Of a DNA stretch of 64,000 bases, positions 2,270 through 60,400 are shown in pieces; the first letter of the stretch is position 1, and every line of letters begins with the position of its first letter. The position numbers and the translations under genes were made by a program. The stretch lies in NCBI RefSeq assembly GCF_004010195.1, contig NC_057749.1, forward strand, positions 10,899,269 through 10,963,268. Direction: 5' to 3'. Source of the DNA: Chiloscyllium plagiosum (lineage: Eukaryota). Under the pieces are notes generated by a model. It saw only the letters and a list, made by a program, of their open reading frames with translations, was not told the origin of the DNA and made no database searches.

Positions 2270-3245
2270 GATACATACATTAAAAAGGGATATAGATACA
2301 TAAAATGGATATACAGGTATATATAGTTGGATACAGGATAGGTGCATAGAACATACGCAGCTAAATAAATGCATATATAAAGGCATAGGTAAATACAGGT
2401 AGATAAATAAATACATCGCTAAATAGAATAGAATATTGTCATGAATAAAATAGTGAAAAGCGTACATATGCGCCATTCACGTTAGTAGATACATACTAAC
2501 AGGCACACAGGGACATACATAGCTGAATAGATATATATGTAAATACACAGGTCTATATAGGCAGATGCATAGATAGTTACACAGATATATAGCTAGGTAC
2601 GTACATAGATCGGCCGCTGCATAAATAGGTACATAGACAAGTAGATACATGGGTTCAAATTTGGGTAAATAGATACAAAAAGAAAGAAGTTGGCAGGTAG
2701 ATCTGTAGATAGATAGAGACAAAGGAGGTGGATCTATAGGTAAATAGAGACATAGGAGGTAGATCTATAGGTAGATAGAGGCATAGGTAGATAGATCTAT
2801 GGGTAGGCTATAGATAGAGACATTGGCAGGTAGATTTATCGGTCGGTAGATCTATAGGTAAATAGAGACATTGGAGGTAGATCTATAGGGAGGTAGAGAC
2901 ATAGATCTATGGGTAGATAGATCTACAGTTAGATAGAGACATTGGTACGTAGATCTATAGGTCGGTAGAGAGTAGCAGCAAATTGCTGCGAATGCTGGAG
3001 ATCATTGCGGGTCAGATAGCATCCATGGAGAGAGAGGACAAGGAATTTTTTCGAAGCTAGATGATTTCATCAGAGCTGAAGTGAAGTGTGGAGCGGGCAG
3101 CTCTCTGATGAAGAATCATGCAGACTGGAAACGTTAGCTTGTTCTCTTTCCATGATGCATAGAGACATAGGTAGGTAGATCCATAAGTAAATGGAGACAT
3201 AGGTAGGTAGATCCATAGGTAAATTGAGACATAGGTAAGTAGAGA
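2270..3245. repeat. Degenerate (TAGA/TAGG/GATA)n simple-sequence array
   Basis: Repeated taggtagatagatctat-type units, interrupted at ~2969-3158 by a fold-back element. Confidence 0.9.
2969..3158. mobile_element. Fold-back mini-element resembling an older Penelope-like terminal repeat, with hammerhead-like motif
   Basis: Inverted arms gcatccatggagagag...ttcatcagagctg and cagctctctgatgaag...ctctttccatgatgc. CTGATGA...GAAACGTTAGCT at 3105-3139. Confidence 0.6.
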
Positions 3246-5967: not shown

Positions 5968-6490
5968 GATAGAATCTCTACACTATAGAAGTATTTGGCC
6001 CATCAAATCCACACCAACCCTCCAAAGAGCATCTCATCCAAACCCACCCCATCTCTGTAACTCTGCATTTCCCACAGCTAACCCACCTAGCCTGCACATC
6101 CCTGGACATAATGGACAATTTAGCATAGGCAATCCACCTTAATCCACATATTTTTGGACTATGGGAGGAAACCCGAGCACACAGGACGAATAGGTAAAAA
6201 CAATGACTGCAGATGCTGGAAACCAGATTCTGGATTGGAGTGGTGCTGGAAAAGCACAGCAGTTCAGGCAGCTTCCGTGGAGCAGGAAAATCGACGTTTC
6301 GGGCAAAAACGTCGATTTTCCTGCTCCTTGGATGCTGTCTGAACTGCTGTGCTTTTCCAGCACCACTCTAATCCACACAGGACGAATGTGCAAAGTCCAC
6401 ACAGACAGTTGCCCGAGGCTGAAATCGAACCAGGGTCGCTGGAGCTGTGAGGCAGCAGTGGTAACCACTGAGCCACTGTGCTACCCCATT
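5968..6490 (-). mobile_element. HE1-type SINE interrupted by a Penelope-derived hairpin
   Basis: Same head and body as 5647-5932, split at 6192-6373. Confidence 0.8.
6192..6373. mobile_element. Penelope-like fold-back mini-insertion with 14-bp TSD
   Basis: ~68-bp inverted arms (6232-6299 and 6307-6374). cacacaggacgaat is duplicated at 6178-6191 and 6374-6387. Confidence 0.85.
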
Positions 6491-8726: not shown

Positions 8727-9726
8727 GAGGAGAAAGTGAGGACTGCAGATGCTGGAGAACAGAGTTGAAAAGTGTGGTGCTGGAAAAACTCAGCAGGCCA
8801 GGCAGCATCCGACGAGCAGGAGAATCGACGATTCGGACATAAACCCTTCTTCAGGAATGAGGCTGGTGTGCCAAGCGGGCTGAGATTAAAGGTGGTGGGG
8901 GTGGGGGAATTTGAGGGCTGGGCGCTGGGAATATGATAGGTGGAAGGAGGTGAGGGTGAGGGTGATAGGCCGGAGAGGGGGTGGGGCGGAGAGATCGGGA
9001 AGAAGATTGCAGGTCAAGAAGGCGGTGCTGAGTCCGAGGNNNNNNNNNNNNNNNNNNNNNNNNNNNNNNNNNNNNNNNNNNNNNNNNNNNNNNNNNNNNN
9101 NNNNNNNNNNNNNNNNNNNNNNNNNNNNNNNNNNNNNNNNNNNNNNNNNNNNNNNNNNNNNNNNNNNNNNNNNNNNNNNNNNNNNNNNNNNNNNNNNNNN
9201 NNNNNNNNNNNNNNNNNNNNNNNNNNNNNNNNNNNNNNNNNNNNNNNNNNNNNNNNNNGGCGCAAGTTTTGCACTTCTTGCGGTTGCAGGGGAAGGTGCC
9301 GGGAGTGGAGGTTGGGTTGGTGGGGGGTGTGGATCTGACTAGGGAGTTGCGGAGGGAGTGGTCTTTCCAGAACGCTGATAGGGGTGGGGAGGGAAATATA
9401 TCCCTGGTAGTGGGGTCTGTTTGGTGGTGGCGGAAATGACGGAGGATGATACGATGTATCTGGTGGTTGGTGGGATGGAAGGTGAGGACCAGTGGGGTCC
9501 TCTGGTGGCGATTGGAGGGGCGGGGTTCAAGGGCGGAGGTGCGGGAAGTGGAGGAGATGCAGTGGAGACCATCGTCGACCACGTCGGAGGGGAAATTGCG
9601 GTCTTTGAAAAAGGAGGCCGTTTGGACTGTTCGGTAGTGGAATTGGTCCCCCTGGGAGCGGATGCGGCGGAGGCGAAAGAATTGGGAATATGGCCTGCTG
9701 CGCTTTTCCAGCACCACACTTTTCAA
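8727..9726 (-). mobile_element. Penelope-like retroelement fragment (spans assembly gap) with short inverted terminal piece
   Basis: ORF PYSQFFRLRRI...CNRKKCKTC matches the 34160 copy. Terminal repeat at left and inverted piece at 9694-9726. Imperfect TSD ccctcctact(c/t)c at 8715-8726 and 9727-9738. Confidence 0.9.
9040..9258. other. Assembly gap (219 N)
   Basis: Run of N. Confidence 1.
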
Positions 9727-24277: not shown

Positions 24278-24421
24278 CCTTAAAAAGCTGGGAATGTCAA
24301 TTTGAACTCTGGAACTTAAAAAGGCATTGAGTCAGAAATTCAAAACAGTACAATTTACAAGTTTCTGACTCAACGCCATTTTATGTTCCAGAGTTCAAAT
24401 GGACATTCCCAGTTTTTAAGG
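24278..24421. repeat. Long imperfect inverted repeat (MITE-like hairpin)
   Basis: ~63-bp arms ccttaaaaagctgggaatgtc...gagtcagaaatt and aagtttctgactc...gacattcccagtttttaagg around an ~18-nt loop. Confidence 0.9.
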
Positions 24422-27727: not shown

Positions 27728-29376
27728 AAATATGAGCTACGATCTCAAGAGAATATCTTAGCCCCTCTGTATTTCATCTTCAGCCATACATTGCATTTTA
27801 TGAAATTTGTTGTCCAAATCTAATAATGTTACAAAGGTGTATTTTTAACTTCACTCTCTTGTTGATGGATTTTTTTTTACTAAATTGGTTTTAAGGATGC
27901 AAGTACGTACTAAGTACCAATTTTCTCATTGAAAGCAGGTGGAGGAAGCTTTAATCGTGGTTCTCCCCCTTTAAGAGCATCTTAAAAATCAACACAAAAC
28001 ATCTAATGCAAACTGAAACTATCCAAGAAAGTTCCCGAGCTTTCTGTGGAAGCTACAATGTAGGCACTATGCTGCAGGCTGACAAGCGCCACAGCAGATG
28101 TACTTTAGATTTCAACTCAGTAAATGACTCATTACCGTAGAATTGTAGGAAGTTTACGATGAAGGGCCCATGTGGCAGTGTCCCTACCTCTGAGCAATCA
28201 GATTCAAGTCCAATCTGAACCAGAGGTTTGTAATAACATCTCCAAACAGATCGATGAGAAAACATATTGAAAGTTTACAGCACCGAGAAAAGCCATTCAG
28301 CCCTCTGTGTCTGCACTGGCCAAAAGACCCTGGCCTTCTCCCACTTTCCAGTGTTTGATCTGTAGTCCTGCAGGTTTCCAGGCTTCAGGTGCATATCCAA
28401 CACCTTTCAAATGAGCTGAGGATTTCTGTCTCTACCACCTTTTCAGACACCTACCTCCCTCTAATCTTTCCATCAGTCACTTTAAATCTGTGTCCCCAAG
28501 TCACTGGCTTCTCTGTAAAGGTAAATCAGTACCATTTATTCTATCCACACCCTTCCGAATTTTGTACACTTCAATCCAAACATCTGTCAGCATCCCCAGT
28601 CTGGCCAATCTTCCATCATAGCTGCATTTTTGCAGTCCTAGCAACATCTTCATTAATCTACTCTGACCTCTGCAATTACATCCTGCCTATAATGAAAGGA
28701 CCAGAATTGCACAGTGCTCAAGCTGTGGTCTAACTAATGATTAATTCGGTTTCAGCATGTCATCTCTGTTTTTATATTCTATTATTGGCCATGTCAGACT
28801 AACAATTAACAGAACAGTACTGTTAAGGGTCATGCAGTACAGAAACAGACCCTTTGGCCTAACTTGTCCATACCAAGCAGATTTCCTAAATTAAAAATAG
28901 TCCCATTTGTCTGGGATTGGCCCATATCCCTCTGAATCTTTCCTATTCGTGTATCTGTCCAAACATCTTCTAAATGTAGTAATTTAAACCTACCACTTCC
29001 TCTGGCAGTTCATTCCATATAAGCACCACCTTCTGTGAAGGAGTTGCCCCTTCAGTGCCTCTTATATCTTTCCCCTCTCAGCTTAAGCCTATGCCCTCTA
29101 GTTTTGGGCTCTCCTATCCTGGGGAAAGACCTTAGCTATTCACCTTATCTATGCCCCTCATCATTTTATAAACATCTATAATGTCACGTCTCAACCTCTT
29201 ATGCTCCAGGTAAAGAACTTCCAGCCTATCCAGCTTCTCCCTGTAATTCAAACCCTCCAGTCTCGGTAACATGCTTGTAATCTTTCTGCACCCTTTCCAG
29301 TTTAATAACATCCTTCCTATAGCAGGGTGACCAGAGTTGTACACAGTACTCCCAAAGTGGCCTCACCAATGCCTTG

Positions 29377-29582
29377 AGGAGAAAGTGAGGTCTGCAGATG
29401 CTGGAGATCAGAGCTGAAAATGTGTTGCTGGAAAAGCGCAGCAGGTCAGGCAACATCCAGGGAACAGGAGAATCGACGTTTCGGGCATGAGCCCTTCTTC
29501 GGGAATGATTCCTGAAGAAGGGCTTATGCCCGAAACGTCGATTCTCCTGTTCCCTGGATGCTGCCTGACCTGCTGCGCCTTT
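29377..29582. mobile_element. Penelope-like fold-back mini-insertion with 14-bp TSD
   Basis: Terminal repeat in reverse then forward orientation around 29506. tcaccaatgccttg at 29363-29376 and 29583-29596. Confidence 0.9.
29508..29543 (+). ncRNA. Minimal type I hammerhead ribozyme-like motif
   Basis: auuc-CUGAAGA-a-GGGC uuau GCCC-GAAAC-GUC-gauu: core boxes, 4-bp stem II, palindromic ACGU in place of stem III. Confidence 0.7.
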
Positions 29583-29814
29583 TCACCAATGCCTTGTACA
29601 GCCACAAATTCCAACTCCCATACTCAATATCCTGACCAATGAAGACAAGTGTGCAAAATGCCTTTGTCACCTTGCATTTCAGCTAATAAGTCTTGCTACA
29701 ATGTTCAAATTAGAGTAATGAGAATACAATTTTTCAGAGGTAATTTTGCCATTTCAGTATTACATTTATACAAAGCTGCATTCCACGATGTAAATGAAGA
29801 AGCATTTAGCTCAC

Positions 29815-32210: not shown

Positions 32211-33756
32211 CTGCATAGGGAACCGAGTCAGAACAAAATAAATTTATAGTACTTATGAACTTGTGTTCAAGATTTAGATTTTGAAAACAAACACACTCAT
32301 TCAAAATTGTCCCTCTTGCACTCACCACCTTTCCCTGTAGGCACTGCCTCTCCTCTTGTATGAGTCCATAGATTCCTGCATTAACCATTGGCTCACCCAG
32401 TTTTTTTTTACATGAAAATAGGCAACCCCATCTCCCAAATGCCCTCCAGTCCTGTGATCTGCCAAGACTGCTACCTTCCTGCAACTTGGACAGGCCAGAT
32501 TTTCAGAATTCCATGACGCAAAAAGCAGAACAGCGCTTAAAAGTGGATGCTGGAAATCAGAAATAAAACCTGAAAGAAGCTGAGGAATCAAACAATCAGC
32601 AGGTAGGCAGTATTGTGTGCGGACAGAGAAAGAGAAACAGAATATACGCTTCAGACTGGAAAATCCTGCCTAACCTGCTGAGATTTTTCTAAACCAGTTT
32701 GTTTAGTTTTAATTTCATCATTGTCATTGCTGCAAGTCACTGGGTACATGTTAGAATCAAGCCTCACGATTCCCGGAATCTTCATAATGTGAAAATATTC
32801 AGATTACCCTAAGTCCCCAATTTAAACGACTGAAGAACCCAGACTAAAAGACAACATTTACCAACCTAAGAAAATAACTTGCTAATGATCAAAAGTCTCT
32901 TTCCAATAGCTGCTGGGCAGTATGAACTGCTAATTCTACAACTTAAATTCTATCCCTTCTTAAACTGCCCTCATCACAAACTGACAGACACAAAGACAAT
33001 GCATAGACATTCAGGGTGAAAAAAGAAATCAGGGAACACAGTGCAATAGCACCTTAGGATTCGCTGAGTTGTTTCCTTTCTCTTGCTTTGAATTCCATTT
33101 TAGTTGTTTGCTGCTGACTCATGTTACTTGCATATCAAAGTTCTCCTCATTTAATTCATTCAGAATTCATCCTTTCACTATTTTTAAAAGATGTTTTGTT
33201 CCTCAGTCAATAGGAATTTTGCAAACAAAGCTGAGTGGAGTCATCTAGTTGTCACTAGAGACTTTCCGGTACCACCACACAGATAGAGAGAGAGAGCAAC
33301 ATTCTTTCTCTTTGCGAGCTAGGTGGTTCACTGTTCACTGCTGCCCTGAGTCAGAAGTCATGATCACCTGAACAGGAGTCTGTCAAAATATTGTTGTCAA
33401 GTAATTTTCCCTTAGTTGCACAAGTTTTCTTTTTAAACATGAGGGGTATAGATAAGTCGAATGGCAGGTGTCTTTTCCAGATTAGTGTGCAATTTTTAGG
33501 GAGAGAGGAACAAGATTTATAAAGGACATGAGGGGCAATGCCCCCTCCATCACTAACCCAACCCAACCCAACCCAACCCAACCCACCCCGCCCCCAGTGA
33601 GTGGTTCATGGGTAGAATGAAGTTCCACAGGAATTGGTGGATGTGGGCACCATCACAATGCTTAAAAGACATTTGGATAAGTAGATGAATAAGAAAGGCT
33701 TGGAGGGATATGGACTCAAGGACGGGGAGATGGGACTAGTTTAGTTTGGGATTATG

Positions 33757-35553
33757 AGAAAGTGAGGACTGCAGATGCTGGAGATCAGAGCTGAAACATT
33801 GTTGCTGGAAAAGCGCAGCAGGTCAGGCAGCATCCAAGGAGCAGGAGAATCGACGTTTCGGGCATAAGCCCTTCTTCAGGAATGAGGAGGGTGTGCCAAG
33901 CAGGCTAAGGTAAAAGGTAGGGTGGAGGGACTTGGGGGAAGGGCATTGGGAATGCGATAGGTGGAAGGAGATTAAGGTGAGGGTGATAGGCCGGAGAGGG
34001 GATGGGGGCGGAGAGGTCAGGAAGAAGATTGCAGGTCAAGAAGGTGGTGCTGAGTCTGAGAGTTGGGACTGAGATAAGGTGGGGGGAGGGAAATGAAAAA
34101 GCTGGAGAAATCTGCATTCATCCCTTGTGGTTGGAGGGTTCCGAGGCAGAAGATGATATGTGGAACAGTCCATCTTCCGCAGCTACACTGGCATGACTCC
34201 CCACCTTTTCCTCCGCTGTATCGATGACTGTACCGGTGCTACCTCGTGCTCCCACGAGGGGGTTGAACAGTTCATCCACTTTACTAACACTTTCCACCCC
34301 GACCTCAAATGTACCTGGACTGTCTCAGACTCCTTCCTCCCCTACCTAGACCTCTCCATTTCTATCTCAGGTGACCGACTCAACACGGGCATATACTATA
34401 AACCGACCGAATCCCACAGCTACCTAGATTACACCTCCTCCCACCCTGCCCCCTGTAAAAATGCCATCCCATATTCCCAATTCCTTCGCCTCCGCCGCAT
34501 CTGCTCCCAGGGGGACCAATTCCAATACCGAACAACCCAGATGGCCTCCTTCTTCAAAGACCGCAATTTCCCCTCAGACGTGGTTGACGATGCTCTCCAC
34601 CGCATCTCTTCCACTTCCCGCAACTCCGCCCTTGAACCCTGCCACTCCAATCGCCACCAGGACAGAACCCCACTGGTCCTCACCTACCACCCCACCAACC
34701 TCCAGATACATCGTATCATCCTTCGTCATTTCCGCCACCTCCAAACAGACCCCACCACCAAGGATATATTTCCCTCCCCTCCCCTATCAGCGTTCCGGAA
34801 AGACCACTCCCTCCGCGACTCCCTCGTCAGGTCCACACCCCCCACCAACCCAACCTCCACTCCCGGCACCTTCACCTGCAACCGCAAGAAATGCAAAACG
34901 TGCGCCCACACCTCCCCCCTCACTTCCCTCCAAGGCCCCAAGGGATCCTTCCATATCCGTCACAAATTCACCTGCAGCTCCACACACATCATTTACTGCA
35001 TCCGCTGCACCCGATGTGGCCTCATATACATTGGCGAGACAGGCCGCCTACTTGCGGAATGCTTCAGAGAACACCTCTGGGACACACGCACCAACCCAAC
35101 CCAACCGTCCTGTGGCTGAACACTTTAATTCCCCCTCCCACTCCGCCAAGGACATGCAGGTCCTTGGCCTTCTCCATCGCCAGACCATGGCAACACGACG
35201 CCTGGAGGAAGAACGCCTCATCATCTGCCTAGGAACCCTCCAACCACAAGGGATGGATTCAGATTTCTCCAGCTTTCTCATTTCCCCTCCCCCCACCTTA
35301 TCTCAGTCCAACCCTCGGACTCAGCACCGCCTTCTTGACCTGCAATCTTCTTCCCGACATCTCCGCCCTCACCCTCTCTCCGGCCTATCACCCTCACCTT
35401 AACCTCCTTCCACCTATTGTATTCCCAACGTCCCTCCCCCAAGTCCCTCCTCCCTACCTTTTATCTTAGCCTGTTTGGCAAACCCTCCTCATTTCAGAAG
35501 AAGGGCTTATGGCCGAAACGTCGATTCTCCTGCTCCATGGATGCTGCCTGACC
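33757..35553 (+). mobile_element. Penelope-like retroelement, 5'-truncated, with inverted terminal segment and 14-15 bp TSD
   Basis: ORF 34160-35119 has the RT tail (FLRCIDD, YLDLSI, YYKPTESHSYL), a Cys linker (CNRKKCKTC) and GIY-YIG (IIYCIRC..C..IYIGETGR). Frameshift near 35095. 33757-34156 is the reverse complement of the 3' end. tagtttgggattatg at 33742-33756 and 35554-35568. Confidence 0.95.
33848..33883 (-). ncRNA. Minimal hammerhead ribozyme-like motif
   Basis: Reverse complement is attcctgaagaagggcttatgcccgaaacgtcgatt, identical to 29508-29543. Confidence 0.7.
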
Positions 35554-35984
35554 TAGTTTGGGATTATGGTCTGCATGGACTGGTTGGACCAAACGGTCTG
35601 TTCCGTGCTATATGACTCTATAACCCATCAGGTCTTTGGTGTCTGCTTCTGTTCTCACTGTTTTAAGCAAACTGTAAACAACTCACAATGTTCTCCAGCA
35701 AACATGATTTTCAACAGTACAACCATCTCTTTGAACAGTCTCCTTGGTTCAAAGCAGTTTCTTCATTTTTCTAATCCACAACCCGAAACTAAAGGCAATA
35801 AAAAGACATGATCTTTACAGACAGCTATGCTGTTCGATTAGCTGGGCCATGGTTTTACAGTGAAATTCTAACAGTCGCAGACATTGCAATACAGTGTACT
35901 GCAAGCCAGTTACAGATAATTCCTGTGGCGCTGGTGTCAGTGTTCGATGCAGCAGCCAATGCAAAAAGGAGACACTGTACTCAC

Positions 35985-38766: not shown

Positions 38767-38962
38767 ATCAAAACGTATGGTTCTGGAAAAGCAAAGCCGG
38801 TCAGGCAGCATCCGAGAGAAGAGTTGATGTTTCAAGCATAGGCTCTTCATCAGCTCGAAACGCTGACTCTTCTACTCCTCAGATGCTGCTGACCAACTGT
38901 GCTTTTCCAGCACCACACCTTTTGACTCTGATCTCCAGCATCTGCAGTCCTCACTTTCTCCC
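38767..38962. mobile_element. Older Penelope-like fold-back mini-insertion
   Basis: Reverse then forward terminal repeat. caatacatctcc at 38755-38766 and 38966-38977. Confidence 0.8.
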
Positions 38963-39425
38963 AGACAATACATCTCCCTTAAACAACAATTGAACTGAAG
39001 TTCTTCATACAGTTTTATTGTTGTTTGTAGAATCTTTACTACATGCAACACCATTGCTTCCACAATAGTTATTGTCTTCAAGCATGCAATGATATAATGA
39101 GATGTCGCTGGCAGGAATTATGTAGGATATCCTTTTGCAATCATATTTCAAGGAAATTTTTCTGCTGTAATTCAAACTCCAGCACCACAGATGAACCTAA
39201 TCGTATTCCACTTAGTGTTAACTCACATTTGCGAGATGGTATCACGCATTAGACACTGGTGTACTAGTTGAATTTCTCCAGCCCTTGTGCAGCTGGTGTC
39301 CCAACCATAACCTGGTAATTCAGCACTGGCTGGTAACCTAAGCCATCCTGCTCTATTTTCCTACAGAAGCCACTGTAGGAATAAAGGAAAAGGACAAATC
39401 AGATTTGCCGTGGCGCTTGACGTAC

Positions 39426-42466: not shown

Positions 42467-42966
42467 NNNNNNNNNNNNNNNNNNNNNNNNNNNNNNNNNN
42501 NNNNNNNNNNNNNNNNNNNNNNNNNNNNNNNNNNNNNNNNNNNNNNNNNNNNNNNNNNNNNNNNNNNNNNNNNNNNNNNNNNNNNNNNNNNNNNNNNNNN
42601 NNNNNNNNNNNNNNNNNNNNNNNNNNNNNNNNNNNNNNNNNNNNNNNNNNNNNNNNNNNNNNNNNNNNNNNNNNNNNNNNNNNNNNNNNNNNNNNNNNNN
42701 NNNNNNNNNNNNNNNNNNNNNNNNNNNNNNNNNNNNNNNNNNNNNNNNNNNNNNNNNNNNNNNNNNNNNNNNNNNNNNNNNNNNNNNNNNNNNNNNNNNN
42801 NNNNNNNNNNNNNNNNNNNNNNNNNNNNNNNNNNNNNNNNNNNNNNNNNNNNNNNNNNNNNNNNNNNNNNNNNNNNNNNNNNNNNNNNNNNNNNNNNNNN
42901 NNNNNNNNNNNNNNNNNNNNNNNNNNNNNNNNNNNNNNNNNNNNNNNNNNNNNNNNNNNNNNNNNN
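42467..42966. other. Assembly gap (500 N)
   Basis: Run of N. Confidence 1.
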
Positions 42967-50425: not shown

Positions 50426-50435
50426 TGTTAATACT

Positions 50436-52197
50436 TGAGAAGTGTGGTGCTGGAAAAACAGGCCAGGCAGCAGGAGAATCGACGTTTCGGGCATAAGCCC
50501 TTCTTCAGGAATGAGGCTGGTGTGCCAAGCGGGCCGAGATAAAAGGTAGGGGGGAGGGAATTTGGGGGAGGGGTGCTGGGAATACGATAAGTGGAAGGAG
50601 GTGAGGGTGAGGTGACTTCGGCAGAGTGGGAGGGGGAGTTGAAATGTTGGGCCACAGGGCGGTGGGGTTGATTGGTGCGGGTGTCCTGGAGATGTTCCCT
50701 AAAGCGCTCTGCTAGGAGGCGTCCAGTCTCCCCAATGTAGAGGAGACCGCATCGGGAGCAACAGATACAGTGAGTGATATTGGTGGATGTGCAGGTAAAA
50801 CTTTGATGGATGTGGAAGGCTCCTTTTGAGCCTTGGATGGAGGTGAGGGAGGAGATGTGGGCGCAGGTTTTGCAATTTCTGCGGTGGCAGGGGAACGTGC
50901 CAGGATGAGAGGGTGGGTTGTAGGGGGGGCGTGGACCTGACCAGGTAGTCACGGAGGGAACGGTCTTTGCGGAAGGTGGAAAGGGGTGGGGAGGGAAATA
51001 TATCCCTGGTGGTGGGGTCTGTTTGGAGGTGGCGGAAATGTCAGCGGATGATTTGGTTTATGCGAAGGTTGGTAGGGTGGAAGGTGAGCACCAGGGGTGT
51101 TCTGTCCTTGTTACAGTTGGAGGGGTGGGGTCTGAGGACGGAGGTGCGGGATGTGGATAAGATGCGTTGGAGGGCATCTTTAACCACGTGGGAATGGAAA
51201 TTGCGGTCTCTAAAGAAGGAGGCCATCTGGTGTGTTCTGTGGTGGAACTAGTCCTCCTGGAAGCAGATATGGCAGAGGCGGAGGAATTGGGAATACAGGA
51301 TAGCATTTTTGCAGGAGGTAGGGTGGGAAGGGGTGTAATCCAGGTAGCTGTGGGAGTCGATAGGGTTTGTAAAAAAATGTCAGTATCAAGTCAGTCGTCA
51401 TTAATGGAGATGGAGAGGTCCAGGAAGGAGAGGGAGGTATCAGAGATGGTCCAGGTAAATTTAAGGTCAGGGTGGAATGTGTTGTTGAGGTTGATGAATT
51501 GCTCAACCTCCTCGTGGGAGCACAAGGTGGCACCAATGCAGTCATCAATGTAGCGGAGGAAGGGGTGGGGAGTGGTGCCAGTGTAATTATGGAAGATCAA
51601 CTGTTCTACGTAGCCAACAAAGAGACAGGCATAGCTGGGGGCCATACGGGTGCCCATGGCTACCCCATTGGTCTGGAGTAAGTGGGAAGATTCGAAGGAG
51701 AAATTGTTAAAGGTGAGGACCAGTTCGGCCAAACGAATAAGAGTGTCGGTGGAAGGGTACTATTGGGGACGGCGGGAGAGGAAGTAACGGAGGGCTTGGA
51801 GGCCCTGGTCATGGCAGATGGAGGTGTAGAGGGACTGGATATCCATGGTGAAGATGAGGCATTGGGGGCCGGGGAAACGGAAGTCTTGGAGGAGGTGGAG
51901 GGCGTGGGTGGTGTCTTGAGTATGTGGGGAGTTCCTGGACTAGGGGGTATAGGATAGTGTTGAGGTAGGTAGAAATGAGTTCAGTGGGGTAGGGGCATGC
52001 TGAGACAATGGGTCAGCCAGGGTGGTCAGGCTTGTGGATCTTGGGAAGGAGGTAGAACCGGGCAGTGCGGGGTTCCCGGACTATGAGGTTGGAAGCTGTG
52101 GGTGGGAGATCTCCTGAGGTGATGAGGTTCTGCATGGTCTGGGAGATGATGGTTTGGTGATGGGGGGGTGGGGTCATGGTCGACGGGGCGGTAGGTT
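50436..52197 (-). mobile_element. Penelope-like retroelement, truncated and frameshifted (RT core, GIY-YIG, terminal repeat)
   Basis: FYLLPKIHKPDHPG, QTNGVAMGTRMAPSYACLFVG, FLRYIDD and LLYIGETGR. Intact hammerhead-like motif at 50477-50512 (-). Confidence 0.95.
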
Positions 52198-53730
52198 GGC
52201 AAGGGGCATGGGACGTTCTGCAGCAAAAGTCGATTGCCAGAATATTATCATGGCCCATTGTCTCTGCAGTATTCAGTTTCTCCAACTGTTTCTTGATATC
52301 ATGTGGAGTGAATCGAATTGGCCAAAGACTGGCATCTATGATGCTGGGGTCCTCATAGAAGGCCAAGGCAGATCAACAACCAGCATTTCTGACCAAAGAT
52401 TATTTTGAATGCATCAGCCCAATGTTTGCACTAAAATGCTGGGCTCTCTTATCATTGAGGATGAAGATATCTTTGGAGTCTCCTCCTCCTCCAGTAAGCT
52501 TTTTAATTCACCATCACCATTCGTGCTGGAAGTAGCAGGATTGCAGAGCTTAGATCTGATCCATAGGACATGGAATCTCTTAGCTCTGTCTATCATTTGC
52601 TGCTTATGTCACTTAGCACTCAGGTAGCCCTGTTTGTAGCTTCACTTGGTGCACAACGCATTTTTAGATATATTTGATGATGCCCCTAGCAGTCATCCTT
52701 CACAGCATCATACCTCCAGAAGATATCCTTTGGCCCATCAAGTCTGTATCACCAAAAATGCACTCCTACCTATACTATTCCTAGTTTCCCATATTAGGCA
52801 CTTGAAGTGCTCATCCAAGTATGTTTTAAAGGTCCCACCTCACCTATCCTCCCAGGTTGTGCAATGTTCATTGAACCACAGTTCAATGAACCCTGGCTTG
52901 ATCATCTTGGTAGATTGGGGGAATGTGCTGACCTATGAGCTAGCAGATTGTATTGGAGTACGATTTTGCAGTTGCTGATGGCCCATGGTGTCTCATGGAA
53001 CCCAGTCTTAAGTTGCTACATCTGCTCTGGTACTCTCAGTATGAAGATGGGACTTTGGTGGACTGTGTGGTGGTCAGTCTTACTAAATTAAAACAAAGAA
53101 TTGTAGATGCTAGAACTCTGAAACAAAAACAGAAAGTGCTGGAGAAACTCAGCAGATCTGGCAGCAAATTAGAGAGAAAAACAGAGTTAACATTTTGCAT
53201 CCATTGATGAAGAATCACCATTCCCTTATCACCTACCACAGACCTACTCAAGTAGCAAACTTCTTTAGGACTCGACCAGTTGAATCAGTAGTACTGCTAT
53301 CAAGCCACTCTTGGTGTTGGACATTGAAATCTCCCACCCAGAGTACATTTTGTGCCCTTGCCAGTCTCTGTGTTTCCTCCAAGTGTTGTTCAACATGTAG
53401 GAGTATTGATTCATTAGCTGAGGGAAGATGGTACATGGTAATCTGCAAGAGTTTTTTCCTTCCCCATGTTGACCTGATACCATGAGATTTCATGGGGTCC
53501 AGAGTTAATGTTGAGGACTCCCAGGTCTGCTCCCTTTTGACTTTATCTCATTGTACCATCACTTCTGCTAATCTGACTTGTCAGTGGGACTAGACATTCC
53601 TAGGGATGGAAATGGTGATTTTTGTGACTCTATAGGTAAGGTATCATTCAAGAATATGTTGTTTGACTAGTTGTCCAATTTTGGCACTAGTCCTCAAGCT
53701 TTTCAGGGTTGACAGGGTTATGTTTGACTG
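52198..53730 (-). mobile_element. Degraded LINE (APE endonuclease region)
   Basis: AQNVLWVGDFNVQHQEWL endonuclease motif (ORF 53248-53493). Confidence 0.75.
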
Positions 53731-55649: not shown

Positions 55650-55883
55650 GTCAAAAGACGGAATGCTGGAAAAGCACAGCCAGTCAGGCAGCATCCGAGG
55701 AGCAGGAGAGTCGACATTTCGAGCGTAAGCTCTTCATTAAGAATGTGGCTTTTCATTCCTGATGAAAAGGTATGCTTGAAACGTCAACTATTCTGCTCCT
55801 CGGATGCTGCCTAACCGGCTGTGCTTTCCCAGCACCCCATTTTTTGAATCTGATCTCCAGCATCTGCAGTCTCCACTTTCTCC
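55650..55883. mobile_element. Penelope-like fold-back mini-element between CR1 fragments
   Basis: Reverse then forward terminal repeat. Degenerate ctgatgaaaaggtatgcttgaaacgtc near 55759. Confidence 0.8.
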
Positions 55884-57439
55884 CATGAGATGTTGTGAAA
55901 CTTGAAAGGGTTCAGAAAAGATTTACAAGGATGTTGCCAGAGTTGGAGGATCTGAGCTATAGGGAGAGGCTGAACAGGCTGGGGCTGTTTTCCCTGGAGC
56001 ATCAGAGACTGAGGGGTGACCTTATAGAGGTTTACAAAATTATGAGGGGCATGGATAGGATAAATAGACAAAGTCTTTTCCCTGGGGTATATCTGGTCAG
56101 CATGGACAGGTTGGACCGAAGGGTCTGTTTCCATGCTGTACATCTTTATGACTATGACTCTATGATTACTAATGATACAAATATCTTATCAAGGGGCCGA
56201 TCAATCATTTCCTTCGTTTCGCACAAAGATCTAGGATAAACCAGATTATGTCCCAGGGATTTATGCATCTTTATGCATTTTAAGATATCCGGCACCACCC
56301 CCTCTGTAATATGGACACTTTTCAAGAAATCACTATTTACTTTTCCAAGTTCTTTAGTTTCCATGTCCGACTTCACAGTAAATACTGACGTAAAATACTC
56401 ATTAAGTATCTCACCCACCTCTGTGGTTCCACACATAGACGGCCTTGTTGATATGATATGGAATGCACTGCCTGAGAGAGTGGTGGGGGTTTCAAGAGAG
56501 ATCTGGATATATATTTGAAAGTGATGAAGTTAGAGGAATATGAAGATAGGCCTGGAGAATGGGACTAGTTGGGTAGCTCTTTTGGAAGTCGGTACAAACA
56601 CGATAAGTCAAATGACCTCCTTCTGTACTGTAAAATTCTGTGATTCTATGTTATGACACACCTTGAAGCAGGCCTTCACACTACCACTGCACCACAAGAG
56701 CCCTCAGAGCAATGGTCTGACCTAACTGAAGGATGCAACATGCCTGCATGAACAATTAACATATTTTTTATTCTCAGCAAATTAAACATTAAGTCACTAT
56801 TACAAAATTAGAAGAAGCCGAATCTGCAATTTGGTAAAAAACCAAAAATCACTTAGGAAGGGCTCTTGAGGTGTAGCGGTAGTGCCCCTACCTTTGAGCC
56901 AATAGGCCCAGGTTCAATTCCCACCTGCCCCAGAGGTGTTTCATAACATCCCTGAATGGGCTTTTTTTTAAAGGAAAACAGAAAGTACCAGCAATAATTA
57001 TCAACTCAACAGGCATCTGTGGGGAAAGAACAGAGTTAAAAATTGTTAGATCACTGGTTCTCAATTTTTAGACTACTCTGTAGATCACTTTGATGATGCA
57101 AAAGACCCCATTTAGATCACCTACCTGCTCTATCCAGTTGTTTTTTGCTTGCCACCACAATAAAATAAAAATCAGAATTAAAGGGACCAATGGTTTTTGA
57201 TGAGACACTGAAGAGGTGAGCCTTCTAGCTCCACGCTGAAGAGCATCAATCTGATTTTAGGCTCCACATTCACAAGTTTCTCTTTTTCTGAATTATAAGC
57301 CCCATTAGTATTGGAAATCTGATCTTACAGCTGTATTTCATTTTTTCAAGGCATCCATCACGAGCTGCTCCAAGATTTAATGCTATTTACAGTTGTCCTG
57401 GAGAGGTCATAGTGAGCCATCTTTGCGTAATAGAGCTAT

Positions 57440-60400
57440 AGAGTTTTACAGCCTGGAAATAAGACTCTCAACTCATCATGTCGACAAACTGTCATTGAGC
57501 ACCTATCGACTCAAGTCCCTTTTTTCAGCTCTTGGCCTATAAGCTTGTGTACTATGGCACTTCAAATGTTCATCTAAATACTTGTCAAATGATGCGATGG
57601 TTCCTACCTCCGTCACCTTTTGAATCCAGAGAGTTCCAGATTTCTACCACCCTCCACGTGAAAAATGAATCCTTCCTTAAATACCCTCAAAGCCCCCTGC
57701 CCATAACCCTAAATGTGTGGCGTGTGAATGCTATTCTCTCAACTAAGGGGATATGTTTTTTCCTATCTATCTTACCTATGCATTTCATAATTTTGTACAC
57801 CTCAAATAGGTCACCCCCTCTGCTCAAAGGAATACAAACCCAGACTATCTAGACTTTCTTCATAGCTGATTTGCTCCAGACCAGACAACGTCCTGGTGAA
57901 TCTCCACTGCACTTTCTCTAGTATAATTATTTCCCATCACAGTGCAGTGACCAGAACTGCTCACAATATTCCAGCTATGGTTGAGTTAATATCTCATACA
58001 GCTCCATCATATCTTCTCAGCTCTTACATTTAATTCCTTGACTAGTAAAGGAAAGCATTCCATGTGTCTTCTTAAATGCTTTATTCACCTATTTTGTTGC
58101 TTTCAAGGATTTGTTAACATGGTGAAATGCACAGAGGCTGGTATCCCATCAACAAATCACCCTTTTTTTACTTAATAGAACAGAGAACATAGAACATTAC
58201 AGCGCAGTATAGGCCCTTCGGCCCTCGACATTGCACCGACCTATGGAACCAATCTGAAGCCCATCTAATGTGCACTATTCCATTTTCATCCATATGTCTA
58301 TCCAATGACCATTTAAATGCCCTTAAGGGTGGCAAGTCTATTACTGTTAATCCTCTGATTATCTTATACGTCTCAATTAAGTCACCTCTTAACTTTCTTC
58401 TCTCCAACAGCATGGTGGCTCAGTGGTTAGCACTGCTGCCTCACAACACCAGGGTCCCAGGTTCGATTGCAGCCTTGGGTGACTGTGTGGAGTTTGCACA
58501 TTCTCCCCGTGTCTGCATGGGTTTCCTCCAGGTGCTCCAGTTTCCTCCCACAGTTCAAAGATATGCAGATCAGGTGATTTGGCCATGGTAAATTGCCCAT
58601 AGTGTTAAGTGCATTAGCCAGTGGTAAATGGGTCTGGCAGGGTTACTCTTCGGAAGGTGGTGTGGACTGGTTGGGCTGAAAGACCTGTTTCCAAACTGTA
58701 GGGAATCTAATTTAATCTAATCTCGATAACAGTCTCAATTTCGTCATAAGACCTTTCCTCCATACCAGGCAACATCCTAGTAAACCTCCTCTGAACCCTT
58801 TCCAAAGCTTCCACATCCTTCCTATAATGCAGTGACCAGAACTGTACACAATATTCCAAATGCGGCTGCACCAGAGTTTTGTACAGCCGCAGCATGACTT
58901 TGTGGATCCGAAACTCAATCCCTCTACCAATAAAAGCTAACACACCATATGCCTTCTTAACAACCCTATCAACTTGGATAGCAACTTTCAGGGATCTAAA
59001 TATATGAACACCAAGAACTCTCTGCTCATCTGCACTACTGTCCTTCTACACCCTCATCCAGGTCATTTATAAAAATAAAAAACAGGAATGGACCCCAAAA
59101 CAAATCCTTGTGGTACACCACTAGTAAGTGAACTCCAAGATGAACATTTGCTATCAACCATCACCCTCTGTCTTCTTTCAACTAGCCAATTTCTGATCCA
59201 AACTGCCAAATAAAACATAGAACAATACAGCGCAGAACAGGCCCTTCGGCTCTCGATGTTGCGCCATCCTGTGAAGTATTCTCAGCTCGTCCCCTACAGT
59301 ATCCCAAAATCATCCATGTGCTTATCTAAGGATTGTTTAAATCTCCCTAATGTGGTTGAGTTAACTACACTGGCAGGTGGTGCATTCCACGCCCTTACCA
59401 CTCTCTGAGTAAAGAACTTGCCTGTGACATCTGTCTTAAATCTATCACCCCTCAATTTGTAGTTATGTCCCTCGTACAATCTGACGTCATCATTCTAGGA
59501 AAAAGACTTTCACTATCTACCCTATTTAATCCTCTGATCATTTTGTATGTCCCTATTAAATCCCCTCTTAGCCTTCTTCTTTCCAATGAGGACAAACCCA
59601 AGTCTCTCAGCCTTTCCTCATAAGACCTTCCCTCTAGACCAGGCAACATCCTGGTAAATCTCCTCTGCACCTTTTCCAATGCTTCCACATCCTTCCCGAA
59701 ATATGGCAACCGGAACTGTACACAATATTCCAAGTGTGGCCGCACTAGCGTTTTGTATAGTTGCAGCATGACATTATGGCTCCGGAACTCAATCCCTCTA
59801 TCAATGAAACCTAACACACCATATGCCTTCTTAACAGCACTATCAACCTGGGTGGCAACTTTCAGGGATCCATGTATATGGACTCCAAGATCCCTCTGTA
59901 CATCCACACTACCAAGAATCTTTCCATTGACCCAGTACTCTGCCTTCCTGTTATTCTTCCCAAAATGCATCTCCTCACATTTAGCTGCATTGAACTCTAT
60001 TTGCCACCTCTCAGCCCAATTCTGCAGTTTATCCAAGTCCCCCTGCAACCTGTAACATTCTTCCAAACTGTCCACCACTCCACCGACTTAAGTGTCACCT
60101 GCAAATTTACTAATCCATCCCCCTATGTCTGCGACTAAGTCATTTATAAGTCATGACAAACAGCAGTGGTCCCAAAACACATTCTTGTGGCACACCACTA
60201 GTAACTGGACTCCAGGCTGAATACTTTCCATCAACCACCACTCACTGCCTTCTTTCAGAAAGCCAGTTTCTAATCCAAACTGCTATATCACCCTCAATCC
60301 CATGCCTCTGCATTTTCTCCAACAGCCTACCATGTGGAACCTTATCAAAGGCTTTACTGAAGTCCATGTATACCACGTCAACTTCCCTATCCTCATCTAC

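What the first reader, a model, noticed from the sequence alone, without database searches (positions are those of the whole stretch)
29363..29596. Hammerhead-ribozyme-bearing fold-back mini-retroelements derived from a Penelope-like element
Seen: a 206-bp insertion made only of the Penelope terminal repeat in reverse then forward orientation. It has a perfect 14-bp TSD and an intact CUGAAGA-a-GGGCuuauGCCC-GAAAC-GUC motif on +, plus a mutated copy on -. The same architecture recurs at 6192, 38767 and 55650, and in an older family at 2969. Known: Penelope-like elements carry minimal type I hammerheads lacking a real stem III, thought to act as dimers. Inference: these non-coding hairpins are either extreme truncation-inversion products or a non-autonomous ribozyme-containing family mobilised in trans. 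As RNA, the fold-back would pair the ribozyme with its own antisense, giving both a possible off-switch and a dsRNA substrate inside STOML1 and LRRC49 introns. This is my best candidate for an undescribed system in the window.
Basis: partly seen in the sequence, partly recalled or inferred. Interest (0 to 1): 0.75.

Follow-up and report, generated by a model that had tools for sequence, protein, structure and literature searches.

The report
Truncated inverted Penelope-like retroelement insertion
The hairpin-shaped 206-base insertion with a hammerhead ribozyme motif is real, but it is the usual dead-end product left when a Penelope-like jumping gene copies only its last ~130 bases into both cut DNA strands, not a new kind of mobile element.

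Summary
Observation confirmed. Window 29377-29582 is a 206-bp fold-back flanked by a perfect 14-bp target-site duplication. It has an exact minimal hammerhead motif on + (29512-29539) and a degenerate one on -.

It is one of at least about 2,000 candidate loci in this 3.56-Gb genome. I read it as a normal insertion product of an endonuclease-bearing Penelope-like element (PLE), for these reasons:
- The arms are the last ~130 nt of a PLE whose RT and GIY-YIG reading frames lie just upstream in longer copies.
- One arm ends exactly at a fixed terminus. The other usually stops 33-36 nt earlier. This is the published one-sided 30-40-bp "tail".
- TSDs are 13-16 bp in 39 of 47 copies.

Published work already describes adjacent inverted 5'-truncated copies, cleavage and extension of both strands, and nearby min-HHRs on opposite strands.

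One modest addition: 106 of 145 arms have their 5' end within ~14 nt of the 5' edge of the ribozyme, and none at its cut site. I infer run-off at the mRNA 5' end.

Ribozyme activity and any dsRNA role remain untested.

The parts
29363..29376 (.). Left copy of the 14-bp target-site duplication (TCACCAATGCCTTG)
   Evidence: two copies, 100% identical, 220 bp apart
29377..29508 (-). Tail-bearing arm. It is the sense strand of the PLE 3'-terminal segment read on the - strand, from about 2 nt upstream of reference position 1 to the fixed terminus at position 129.
   Evidence: 95% identical to the natural reference arm L010:1575-1703 over positions 1-129. The terminus is the same in all 30 aligned genomic copies.
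29377..29409 (-). The 'tail': the terminal ~33 nt, present on this arm only
   Evidence: arm 3' ends are bimodal (65 of 145 at position 129, 58 at 90-102). This matches the 30-40-bp one-sided tail of PLEs.
29475..29502 (-). Degenerate hammerhead motif (CCGAAGA instead of CUGAAGA; loop UCAU)
   Evidence: 2 mismatches. The change at core position U4 is read from the sequence.
29509..29582 (+). Tailless arm: sense strand on +, reference positions 1 to about 74. It is shorter than the usual end at 92-96.
29512..29539 (+). Intact minimal type I hammerhead motif CUGAAGA-A-GGGC-UUAU-GCCC-GAAA-CG-UC. The predicted cut is after 29539.
   Evidence: exact match. The features are compared with PMC4209133. 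No Rfam hammerhead hit.
29583..29596 (.). Right copy of the target-site duplication
6192..6373 (.). Second short fold-back of the same family. Its junction lies inside the ribozyme, and it has a 14-bp TSD at 6178-6191 / 6374-6387.
38767..38965 (.). Third short fold-back, older (74-79% to the reference), with the tail on the right arm and a 12-bp TSD
55650..55885 (.). Fourth short fold-back, older (77-81%), with the tail on the right arm and no clean TSD
33756..35554 (.). Long fold-back. It has a 401-bp tail-bearing arm on - (33756-34156) joined to a 1.4-kb sense arm on + (34157-35554) that stops at reference position 63.
50463..52372 (-). 3' part of a decayed PLE copy: RT-like and GIY-YIG-like frames followed by the hammerhead segment. 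This shows where the arms come from.
   Evidence: RVT_1 E 0.0022 and GIY-YIG E 0.0028, both below Pfam's cut-offs.

Best explanation
The 206-bp element is a single, dead-on-arrival insertion made by an endonuclease-bearing Penelope-like element (PLE).

- The PLE endonuclease cut the target with a 14-15-bp stagger, seen as the TSD.
- Reverse transcription was then primed from both nicked strands. This is inferred from published in vitro work.
- On one side it started at the outer RT start site, giving the arm with the ~33-nt tail. On the other side it started at the inner site, or here further in.
- Both cDNAs ran about 130 nt to a common 5' limit just upstream of the hammerhead motif. They were joined head to head, often through a few bases of microhomology.
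- The result is an inverted dimer of the PLE segment from the ribozyme to the RT start site. It has no coding capacity and no evidence of further spread.
- I infer, at about even odds, that the common 5' limit is the 5' end of the PLE mRNA. The promoter and start site would lie in the terminal repeat, so the mini-units would be run-off cDNAs from internal initiation near the 5' end of the mRNA.
- The hammerhead is a passenger. In a transcript that spans the fold-back it is predicted to be locked in a ~75-bp hairpin.
For: Shown here:
1. The 206-bp query matched 40 of 40 scored loci over essentially its full length at 91-96% identity, out of 2117 first-look candidates. In the alignment of 30 of these, the flanks are unrelated, the tail end is identical, and the central junction differs.
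2. A sample anchored only on the 70-nt tail end (30 loci) gave 18 short fold-backs, 5 simple copies starting at the same 5' boundary without an inverted arm, and 7 longer copies.
3. 58 fold-backs gave 53 distinct junction strings. The commonest, seen 4 times, is the perfect palindrome AGGAATTCCT.
4. 39 of 47 young fold-backs have a perfect 13-16-bp TSD around the whole structure, so each is one event.
5. Among 145 young arms, the 3' ends are bimodal: 65 at position 129 and 58 at 90-102. The 5' ends fall within -9..+5 in 106 arms, 12 arms are long, and none ends at the hammerhead cut site 31-33.
6. In a sample anchored on an internal variant, 12 of 13 resolvable fold-backs have a tail on one arm only.
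7. Longer copies continue upstream into RT-like and GIY-YIG-like frames.
8. Contig word depth in run X15 rises from 1.6 M to 5.2 M across position 1.

From papers:
- PMC8557442 (passages): adjacent inverted 5'-truncated copies and a 30-40-bp tail, often at one end only.
- PMC11167929 (main text): the Anolis PLE protein cleaves and extends both strands. RT starts at two adjacent internal sites that define the tail. The ribozyme is not needed for insertion.
- PMC6765202 (passages) and PMC2377424 (abstract): the promoter and start site lie in the terminal repeat.
Against: - The PLE protein evidence is weak. Both Pfam hits are below the curated cut-offs, three L034 frames gave nothing, and coding stretches of several copies read N.
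- Priming from both strands is taken from in vitro work on a lizard element, not shown here.
- The 5' limit as an mRNA start rests on published promoter data and on an initiator-like TCATTCC and an AT-rich stretch ~30 nt upstream. I recognised these motifs from memory.
- The RNA reads laid (poly(A) single-cell library) showed no place where many molecules begin or end.
- 5' ends are ragged over about 10 nt.
- Some complex junction types recur (GGGCTTATGCCCGAAG in L013 and L020; CAGG|CTTATG in at least 4 copies). Recurrent microhomology or limited inheritance could each explain this.
- My samples are small (about 80 loci) and partly chosen by likeness to the window copy.
Confidence: 0.85

Rival explanations
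1. A short linear, non-autonomous RNA (about 130 nt, from the ribozyme to the RT start site) has its own internal promoter. It is SINE-like or a retrozyme-like monomer, and the PLE enzyme mobilises it in trans. Each insertion still forms its fold-back anew.
For: - The 5' boundary is sharp: 106 of 145 arms.
- 23 of 30 tail-anchored copies are short.
- Drosophila Penelope has an internal TATA-less promoter (PMC2377424 abstract).
- Animal retrozymes are proposed to be pLTR-derived non-autonomous elements with many monomers (preprint 10.64898/2026.07.22.740005).
Against: - Short and long copies carry the same subfamily variants. Positions 71 and 89, and the rare T at position 53, are found in long copies L072, L082 and L085 as well as in short ones. 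So no separate short lineage is visible.
- Run-off from ordinary PLE mRNA explains the same boundary without a second element.
- No discrete short RNA was seen, but the library laid could not have shown one.
Confidence: 0.15
2. A self-propagating hairpin family. A master fold-back is transcribed as a hairpin RNA and copied as a unit, and the central junction is scrambled each round at the hairpin tip.
For: - The precise tail end and the variable other end would also fit 5' truncation of a hairpin RNA.
- A few junction types recur.
Against: - 53 distinct junctions in 58 copies, and the same junction type occurs on different subfamily backgrounds.
- The 'variable' end is not broadly spread. It peaks sharply at positions 92-96, as expected of an RT start site.
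- Simple copies and long asymmetric fold-backs share both kinds of end.
- An apparent arm-specific variant (T53 on tail arms only) vanished in a sample anchored on the variant itself: 5 on the tail arm, about 5 on the tailless arm, 1 on both.
Confidence: 0.05
3. A palindrome made at the DNA level after an ordinary insertion (replication template switch), or a hairpin domesticated as a microRNA-type gene.
For: Sub-threshold Rfam matches to microRNA precursor models (mir-3199 at 55 bits against a gathering score of 100; MIR6136 at 53 against 99). These reflect only the long hairpin.
Against: - The TSD brackets the whole fold-back in 39 of 47 copies.
- The same architecture is found at very many loci, with the tail on one arm.
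- All microRNA hits are far below gathering scores and hit both strands alike.
- Copies decay freely: 67-96% identity.
Confidence: 0.02

Closest known systems
Insertion units of canonical endonuclease-bearing Penelope-like elements (Penelope/Poseidon/Neptune type), as described by Craig et al. 2021 (PMC8557442) and Frangieh et al. 2024 (PMC11167929)
   Same: - High 5' truncation.
- An inverted 5'-truncated copy abutting a direct one.
- A 30-40-bp tail at one end only.
- A hammerhead motif in the terminal segment, about 65-100 nt upstream of the two ends.
- GIY-YIG frame upstream.
- TSD around the whole unit.
   Different: - Here both copies are cut down to the last ~130 nt, so nothing but the terminal segment is left.
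- This extreme form dominates: 23 of 30 tail-anchored copies are short.
- The 5' ends pile up at the 5' edge of the ribozyme. I did not see this stated in the passages I read.
Minimal hammerhead ribozymes of metazoan PLEs (Cervera and de la Pena 2014, PMC4209133)
   Same: - CUGANGA, GAAA and UH boxes.
- An extra unpaired base before helix II.
- A G10.1-C11.1 pair.
- No helix III loop, with a palindromic ACGU that could pair in a dimer.
- Widespread as single truncated copies. That paper also notes pairs 100-700 bp apart on opposite strands.
   Different: - Helix II is 4 bp, where that paper reports 7-8 bp in Schistosoma.
- Helix I is weak even in long copies, and in the short copies its 5' strand is mostly missing.
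- Here the two motifs are only ~10 nt apart, so they would pair with each other rather than form an active dimer.
Animal non-LTR retrozymes (Cervera and de la Pena 2020, PMC7229834, listing only; Li et al. 2026 preprint, results read)
   Same: Non-coding, hammerhead-bearing sequences derived from PLE terminal repeats and dependent on PLE enzymes.
   Different: Retrozymes are head-to-tail tandem repeats thought to act through circular RNAs. These are head-to-head inverted dimers with TSDs, and no tandem or permuted junction was seen.
Twin priming and 5' inversion of LINE-1 (recalled, not read here)
   Same: Both nicked target strands prime cDNA synthesis, giving an inverted segment joined to a direct one within one TSD.
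   Different: In LINE-1 the two segments come from different parts of one RNA and do not overlap. Here both arms cover the same terminal segment and each starts at a specific internal RT start site.

Membership tests
Canonical EN+ Penelope-like element insertion | Single ORF with an RT followed by a C-terminal GIY-YIG endonuclease in the parent element | tested here: inconclusive
   - RVT_1 E 0.0022 (window 51391-51759 -) and GIY-YIG E 0.0028 (50428-51057 -). They are on the same strand, in that order, and directly upstream of the hammerhead segment, but both are below Pfam's cut-offs.
- YIDD-type and LYIGETGR-type strings are visible in the translations.
- The Atlas's nearest clusters carry GIY-YIG in 13% of members (a lead only).
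- The L034 frames gave no hit.
Canonical EN+ Penelope-like element insertion | Inverted 5'-truncated copy directly adjacent to a direct copy | tested here: met
   18 of 30 tail-anchored copies are short fold-backs.
Canonical EN+ Penelope-like element insertion | 30-40-bp 'tail' extension, often at one end only | tested here: met
   - Arm 3' ends: 65 of 145 at position 129 and 58 at 90-102.
- 12 of 13 resolvable fold-backs in the variant-anchored sample have the tail on one arm only.
Canonical EN+ Penelope-like element insertion | Partial tandem copies forming pseudo-LTRs | not tested
   Only hints were seen (L072, L007). Full-length copies were not examined, and coding stretches are partly withheld as N.
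Minimal hammerhead of metazoan PLEs | Core boxes CUGANGA ... GAAA ... UH, an unpaired base between positions 9 and 10.1, a G10.1-C11.1 pair, and palindromic 15.2-16.2 without a helix III loop | tested here: met
   The + strand 29512-29539 reads CUGAAGA-A-GGGC-UUAU-GCCC-GAAA-CG-UC. The criteria are those listed in PMC4209133. The - strand copy fails at U4.
Minimal hammerhead of metazoan PLEs | Helix I of about 4-6 bp closing the ribozyme | tested here: inconclusive
   - In long copies only C-G, U-A, (U.U), A-U can be drawn next to the core (read).
- In short copies the 5' strand starts 3-4 nt before the core.
- The MFE folds do not show a hammerhead.
Minimal hammerhead of metazoan PLEs | Self-cleavage after GUC, as a dimer | not testable with these tools
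   - 0 of 145 arms start at the predicted cut site.
- No pile-up of read ends was seen there.
- Both agree with the published finding that uncleaved RNA is the template. Neither tests catalysis.
Rfam hammerhead families | Match to a curated hammerhead covariance model | tested here: not met
   No hammerhead hit at gathering score in the whole window. None at E<=10 on 29300-29660 or on a long natural copy, L043:1380-1600. As I recall, those models include a helix III, which this motif lacks.
Animal non-LTR retrozymes | Head-to-tail tandem repeats of the hammerhead-bearing unit | tested here: not met
   The arms are head to head. No tandem junction was seen among the ~80 loci examined, apart from partial hints (L007, L072).
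Self-propagating fold-back or hairpin family | Inversion junction shared among copies | tested here: not met
   53 distinct junction strings in 58 fold-backs.

The most novel reading that the evidence does not exclude
The ~130-nt unit, from the ribozyme's 5' edge to the RT start sites, is more than debris. It keeps an internal promoter and the RT recognition site. It therefore renews itself as a SINE-like, PLE-dependent lineage. Its obligatory head-to-head insertion seeds thousands of perfect ~75-bp hairpins in host transcripts, which feed RNA-editing or small-RNA pathways and silence the ribozyme.
Probability: 0.08. Interest if true: 0.55.

Novelty: new member of a known kind. Interest (0 to 1): 0.2.

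Why it matters
The practical value is a warning for annotation. These hairpins carry ribozyme motifs and score as microRNA-like precursors, but they are ordinary by-products of Penelope-like retrotransposition.

They are still useful to specialists as a natural record of the mechanism. In this genome:
- The two discrete 3' ends lie 33-36 nt apart.
- The TSD is a uniform 14-15 bp.
- The tail is one-sided.
- No 5' ends fall at the ribozyme cut site.

These features mirror what was measured in vitro for a lizard element (PMC11167929). The pile-up of 5' ends at the ribozyme's 5' edge suggests a testable idea: most insertions are run-off cDNAs from initiation near the 5' end of the mRNA.

Tried and rejected
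- **Rfam.** No hammerhead family at gathering score or at E<=10. The only hits were sub-threshold microRNA models, which I rejected as generic hairpin matches.
- **Arm-specific editing or mutation.** T at position 53 appeared only on tail arms, in 9 copies. I rejected this after a sample anchored on the variant showed it on either arm. With so many copies, independent mutation can also explain arms that disagree, so I could not decide whether the two arms come from one RNA molecule or two.
- **A second anchored search** found nothing. The tool skips words that are very common, so this says nothing.
Smaller requests were served. One search returned matches but no loci.
- **Runs.** No RNA holder was listed.
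- **Laid reads**. X20 gave 0 reads. X19 gave 1254 reads, 93% running into unlike flanks, in both directions, with no preferred starts or ends.
- **Possible editing.** A>G at L043:1539 was seen in 135 of 519 reads of one direction, against 2.4% of contig depth in X15. This looks like editing, but one strongly expressed copy may cause it (128 reads share one flank). It stays unresolved.
- **Folding.** The MFE and cofold predictions did not give the hammerhead dimer. I did not take this as evidence, because such cores are not predicted by nearest-neighbour models.
- **Other calls.** Pfam on three L034 frames gave no hit. Lunse et al. 2016 (PMC5785218) is not held and was seen only as a reference title. 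The host-gene context (STOML1, LRRC49) was not tested.
Full report
**1.

Window 29377-29582 is a 206-bp insert. It lies between two perfect copies of TCACCAATGCCTTG (29363-29376 and 29583-29596). The insert is an inverted repeat with arms 29425-29506 and 29508-29589 (82 nt, 93% complementary, 1 nt apart).

The string CTGAAGAAGGGCTTATGCCCGAAACGTC is exact on the + strand at 29512-29539. On the - strand at 29475-29502 it has two changes (CCGAAGA, loop UCAU). The window holds 7 matches at up to 3 mismatches, against none in 100 shuffles.

Fold-backs of the same sequence occur elsewhere in the window:
- 6192-6373 has a 14-bp TSD, but its junction lies inside the ribozyme, so neither arm keeps the CUGANGA box.
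- 38767-38965 has a 12-bp TSD.
- 55650-55885 has no clean TSD.
- About 2943-3158 holds an older, diverged one.

In 33756-35554, a 401-bp arm on - is joined to a 1.4-kb sense arm on +. The other is 8728..9721.

**2. Source of the arms**

The window lies in a 3.56-Gb assembly. At 50463-52372 (-) the hammerhead segment is preceded on the same strand by two frames:
- one with a GIY-YIG-like stretch (Pfam E 0.0028);
- further upstream, one with an RT-like stretch (RVT_1 E 0.0022).

Both are below Pfam's cut-offs. The 1.4-kb arm at 34157-35147 is 79% identical to this region. The protein Atlas's nearest clusters carry GIY-YIG (a lead only).

RT followed by GIY-YIG, then a short untranslated stretch and a hammerhead, is the layout of canonical Penelope-like elements (PLEs). 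The protein evidence by itself is weak, and parts of the coding regions read N.

**3. Many copies, each made anew**

The 206-bp query gave 2117 first-look candidates. All 40 scored loci matched essentially end to end at 91-96%. In an alignment of 30 of them:
- the flanks are unrelated;
- one end (AGGAGAAAGTGAGG...) is identical in all;
- the other arm usually runs further than in the window copy and then meets the TSD;
- the centre differs from copy to copy.

That sample was chosen by likeness to the fold-back itself. I therefore drew a second sample with only the terminal 70 nt of a natural copy (L010:1634-1703; 1203 candidates, 30 loci). It held:
- 18 short fold-backs;
- 5 simple copies with no inverted arm that begin at the same place;
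- 7 longer copies.

Over all the DNA I held, 58 young fold-backs gave 53 different junction strings. The commonest, seen 4 times, is the perfect palindrome AGGAATTCCT.

A perfect 13-16-bp TSD (mode 14-15) brackets the whole structure in 39 of 47 young fold-backs, so each is a single insertion event.

**4. The ends are discrete**

I aligned 145 young arms (at least 90% identical) to a natural 390-nt copy.
- 3' ends: 65 stop exactly at position 129 and 58 stop at 90-102, with a peak at 92-96.
- 5' ends: 106 lie within -9..+5 of the first base of my reference arm, 3-4 nt before the CUGAAGA box. Only 12 arms extend 10 nt or more further upstream.
- None begins at positions 31-33, the predicted ribozyme cut site.

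In a sample anchored on an internal variant, and so blind to the ends, 12 of 13 resolvable fold-backs had the ~33-nt extension on one arm only. Of the single copies, 5 lacked it and 1 had it.

Contig word depth in a DNA-like run rises about threefold across position 1. The window copy fits the pattern: its - arm reaches the fixed terminus, and its + arm stops early, at about position 74.

**5. All of this is described for PLEs**

- Craig et al. [quoted passage not shown]
- Frangieh et al. 2024 (PMC11167929, main text read) purified an Anolis PLE protein. [quoted passage not shown] Reverse transcription starts at two adjacent internal RNA sites whose spacing is the tail. Ribozyme mutants insert normally. 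No RNA-seq reads begin or end at the cut site.
- Cervera and de la Pena 2014 (PMC4209133, first two of four parts read) defined the minimal hammerheads of PLEs. They noted that most occur as single truncated copies, and that some pairs lie 100-700 bp apart on opposite strands.

The motif here meets their four sequence criteria:
- the three core boxes;
- an unpaired base before helix II;
- a G10.1-C11.1 pair;
- a palindromic ACGU in place of helix III.

Rfam's hammerhead models do not find it in the window, in the fold-back, or in a long natural copy. I attribute this to the missing helix III. Helix I is weak, and in the short copies its 5' strand is mostly absent. Catalysis was not tested.

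**6. Likely mechanism**

Steps seen in the sequence:
- one event per fold-back;
- a 14-15-bp staggered target cut;
- two discrete kinds of 3' end;
- a shared 5' limit;
- junctions formed anew, often with a few bases shared by both sides.

Steps inferred from the literature:
- Each nicked strand primes cDNA synthesis at one of two internal RT start sites.
- The two cDNAs are then joined head to head.

When the junction is asymmetric, it is usually the tail-bearing arm that is cut short. By my reading, this holds in about 15 cases against about 3.

My own inference, at about even odds, is that the shared 5' limit is the 5' end of the PLE mRNA:
- Published work places the promoter and start site in the terminal repeat (PMC6765202 passages; PMC2377424 abstract).
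- The sequence there reads TCATTCC, with an AT-rich stretch about 30 nt upstream. I recognise these as initiator-like and TATA-like from memory.
- RT initiation at the start sites about 95-130 nt downstream would then run off after ~130 nt and give exactly these units.

A strong stop to reverse transcription, or a separate short RNA, would give the same pattern.

**7. What I could not settle**

- I could not tell whether the two arms come from two RNA molecules or one. Arms disagree at subfamily markers (position 71 in 8 of 45; position 53 in most copies that carry the variant). With this many copies, independent mutation can explain that.
- An apparent tail-arm-specific variant turned out to be a sampling effect.
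- RNA: in a poly(A) single-cell library, 1254 reads matched the family, 93% ran on into unrelated flanks, and both directions were present. The copies therefore appear mostly as passengers in host transcripts. No preferred starts or ends were seen, but this library could not show a 130-nt RNA.
- A few A>G differences are commoner in RNA reads than in contig depth (for example 135 of 519 against 2.4% at L043:1539). One highly expressed copy may account for them.
- Folding predicts that a transcript across the window fold-back forms a near-perfect hairpin: -157.2 kcal/mol on +, -149.1 on -, against -24.4 for the sense arm alone. Masking of the ribozyme is therefore plausible, but only predicted.
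- The host-gene context was not checked.

**8. Verdict**

- The architecture is a published hallmark of PLEs, so this is another member of a known kind.
I tested it independently here.
- The modest new points are the sharp 5' limit at the ribozyme's edge and the close match between genomic end positions and the in vitro RT start sites.

Noticed in passing
L043:1501, 1524, 1539 (family positions 60, 83, 98): A>G differences are several-fold commoner in raw RNA reads of one direction than in contig depth of a DNA-like run (for example 135 of 519 against 2.4%). This could be A-to-I editing of hairpin transcripts, or one highly expressed copy: 128 reads share one downstream flank that contains AATAAA.
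   Followed up: partly
window 9040-9258 and 42467-42966; also L057-L060 upstream parts: Runs of N lie where retroelement coding sequence would be expected. This limited the protein-level checks of the parent element.
   Followed up: no
window 24283-24417: An unrelated inverted repeat with 56-nt arms, 91% complementary, 23 nt apart. It may be a small fold-back transposon.
   Followed up: no
window 60242-60841 (-): A clear reverse-transcriptase frame (RVT_1 E 3.7e-15), seemingly from another retroelement. I did not test whether it is a PLE or a LINE.
   Followed up: no
window 2880-3240: Satellite-like repeats (tagatagagacat... units) surround the old fold-back at about 2943-3158, so its apparent 10-bp TSD may be chance.
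   Followed up: partly
L078 (G000:C9:32636234-32636559): An odd copy: a full tailless arm is joined to a tail-bearing arm of only ~45 nt (positions ~85-128), within a 17-bp TSD. The tail-side cDNA seems to have been captured almost at once.
   Followed up: partly
L007:667-1175 and L061:1390-1651: Rare fold-backs with the tail on both arms. L007 also has a third, direct copy. They are exceptions to the one-sided tail.
   Followed up: no
L013, L014, L016, L019, L020, L022 junctions: A recurrent complex junction in which the helix II hairpin (GGGCTTATGCCC) is duplicated before the tail arm. It is consistent with slippage between the GAA repeats of the core, and it makes the core read CCGAAGA.
   Followed up: partly
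(window:29377-29446 as query): The tail-end words of the window's own subfamily were skipped as 'very common' by the genome search. This hints at a very high copy number but is not a count.
   Followed up: no
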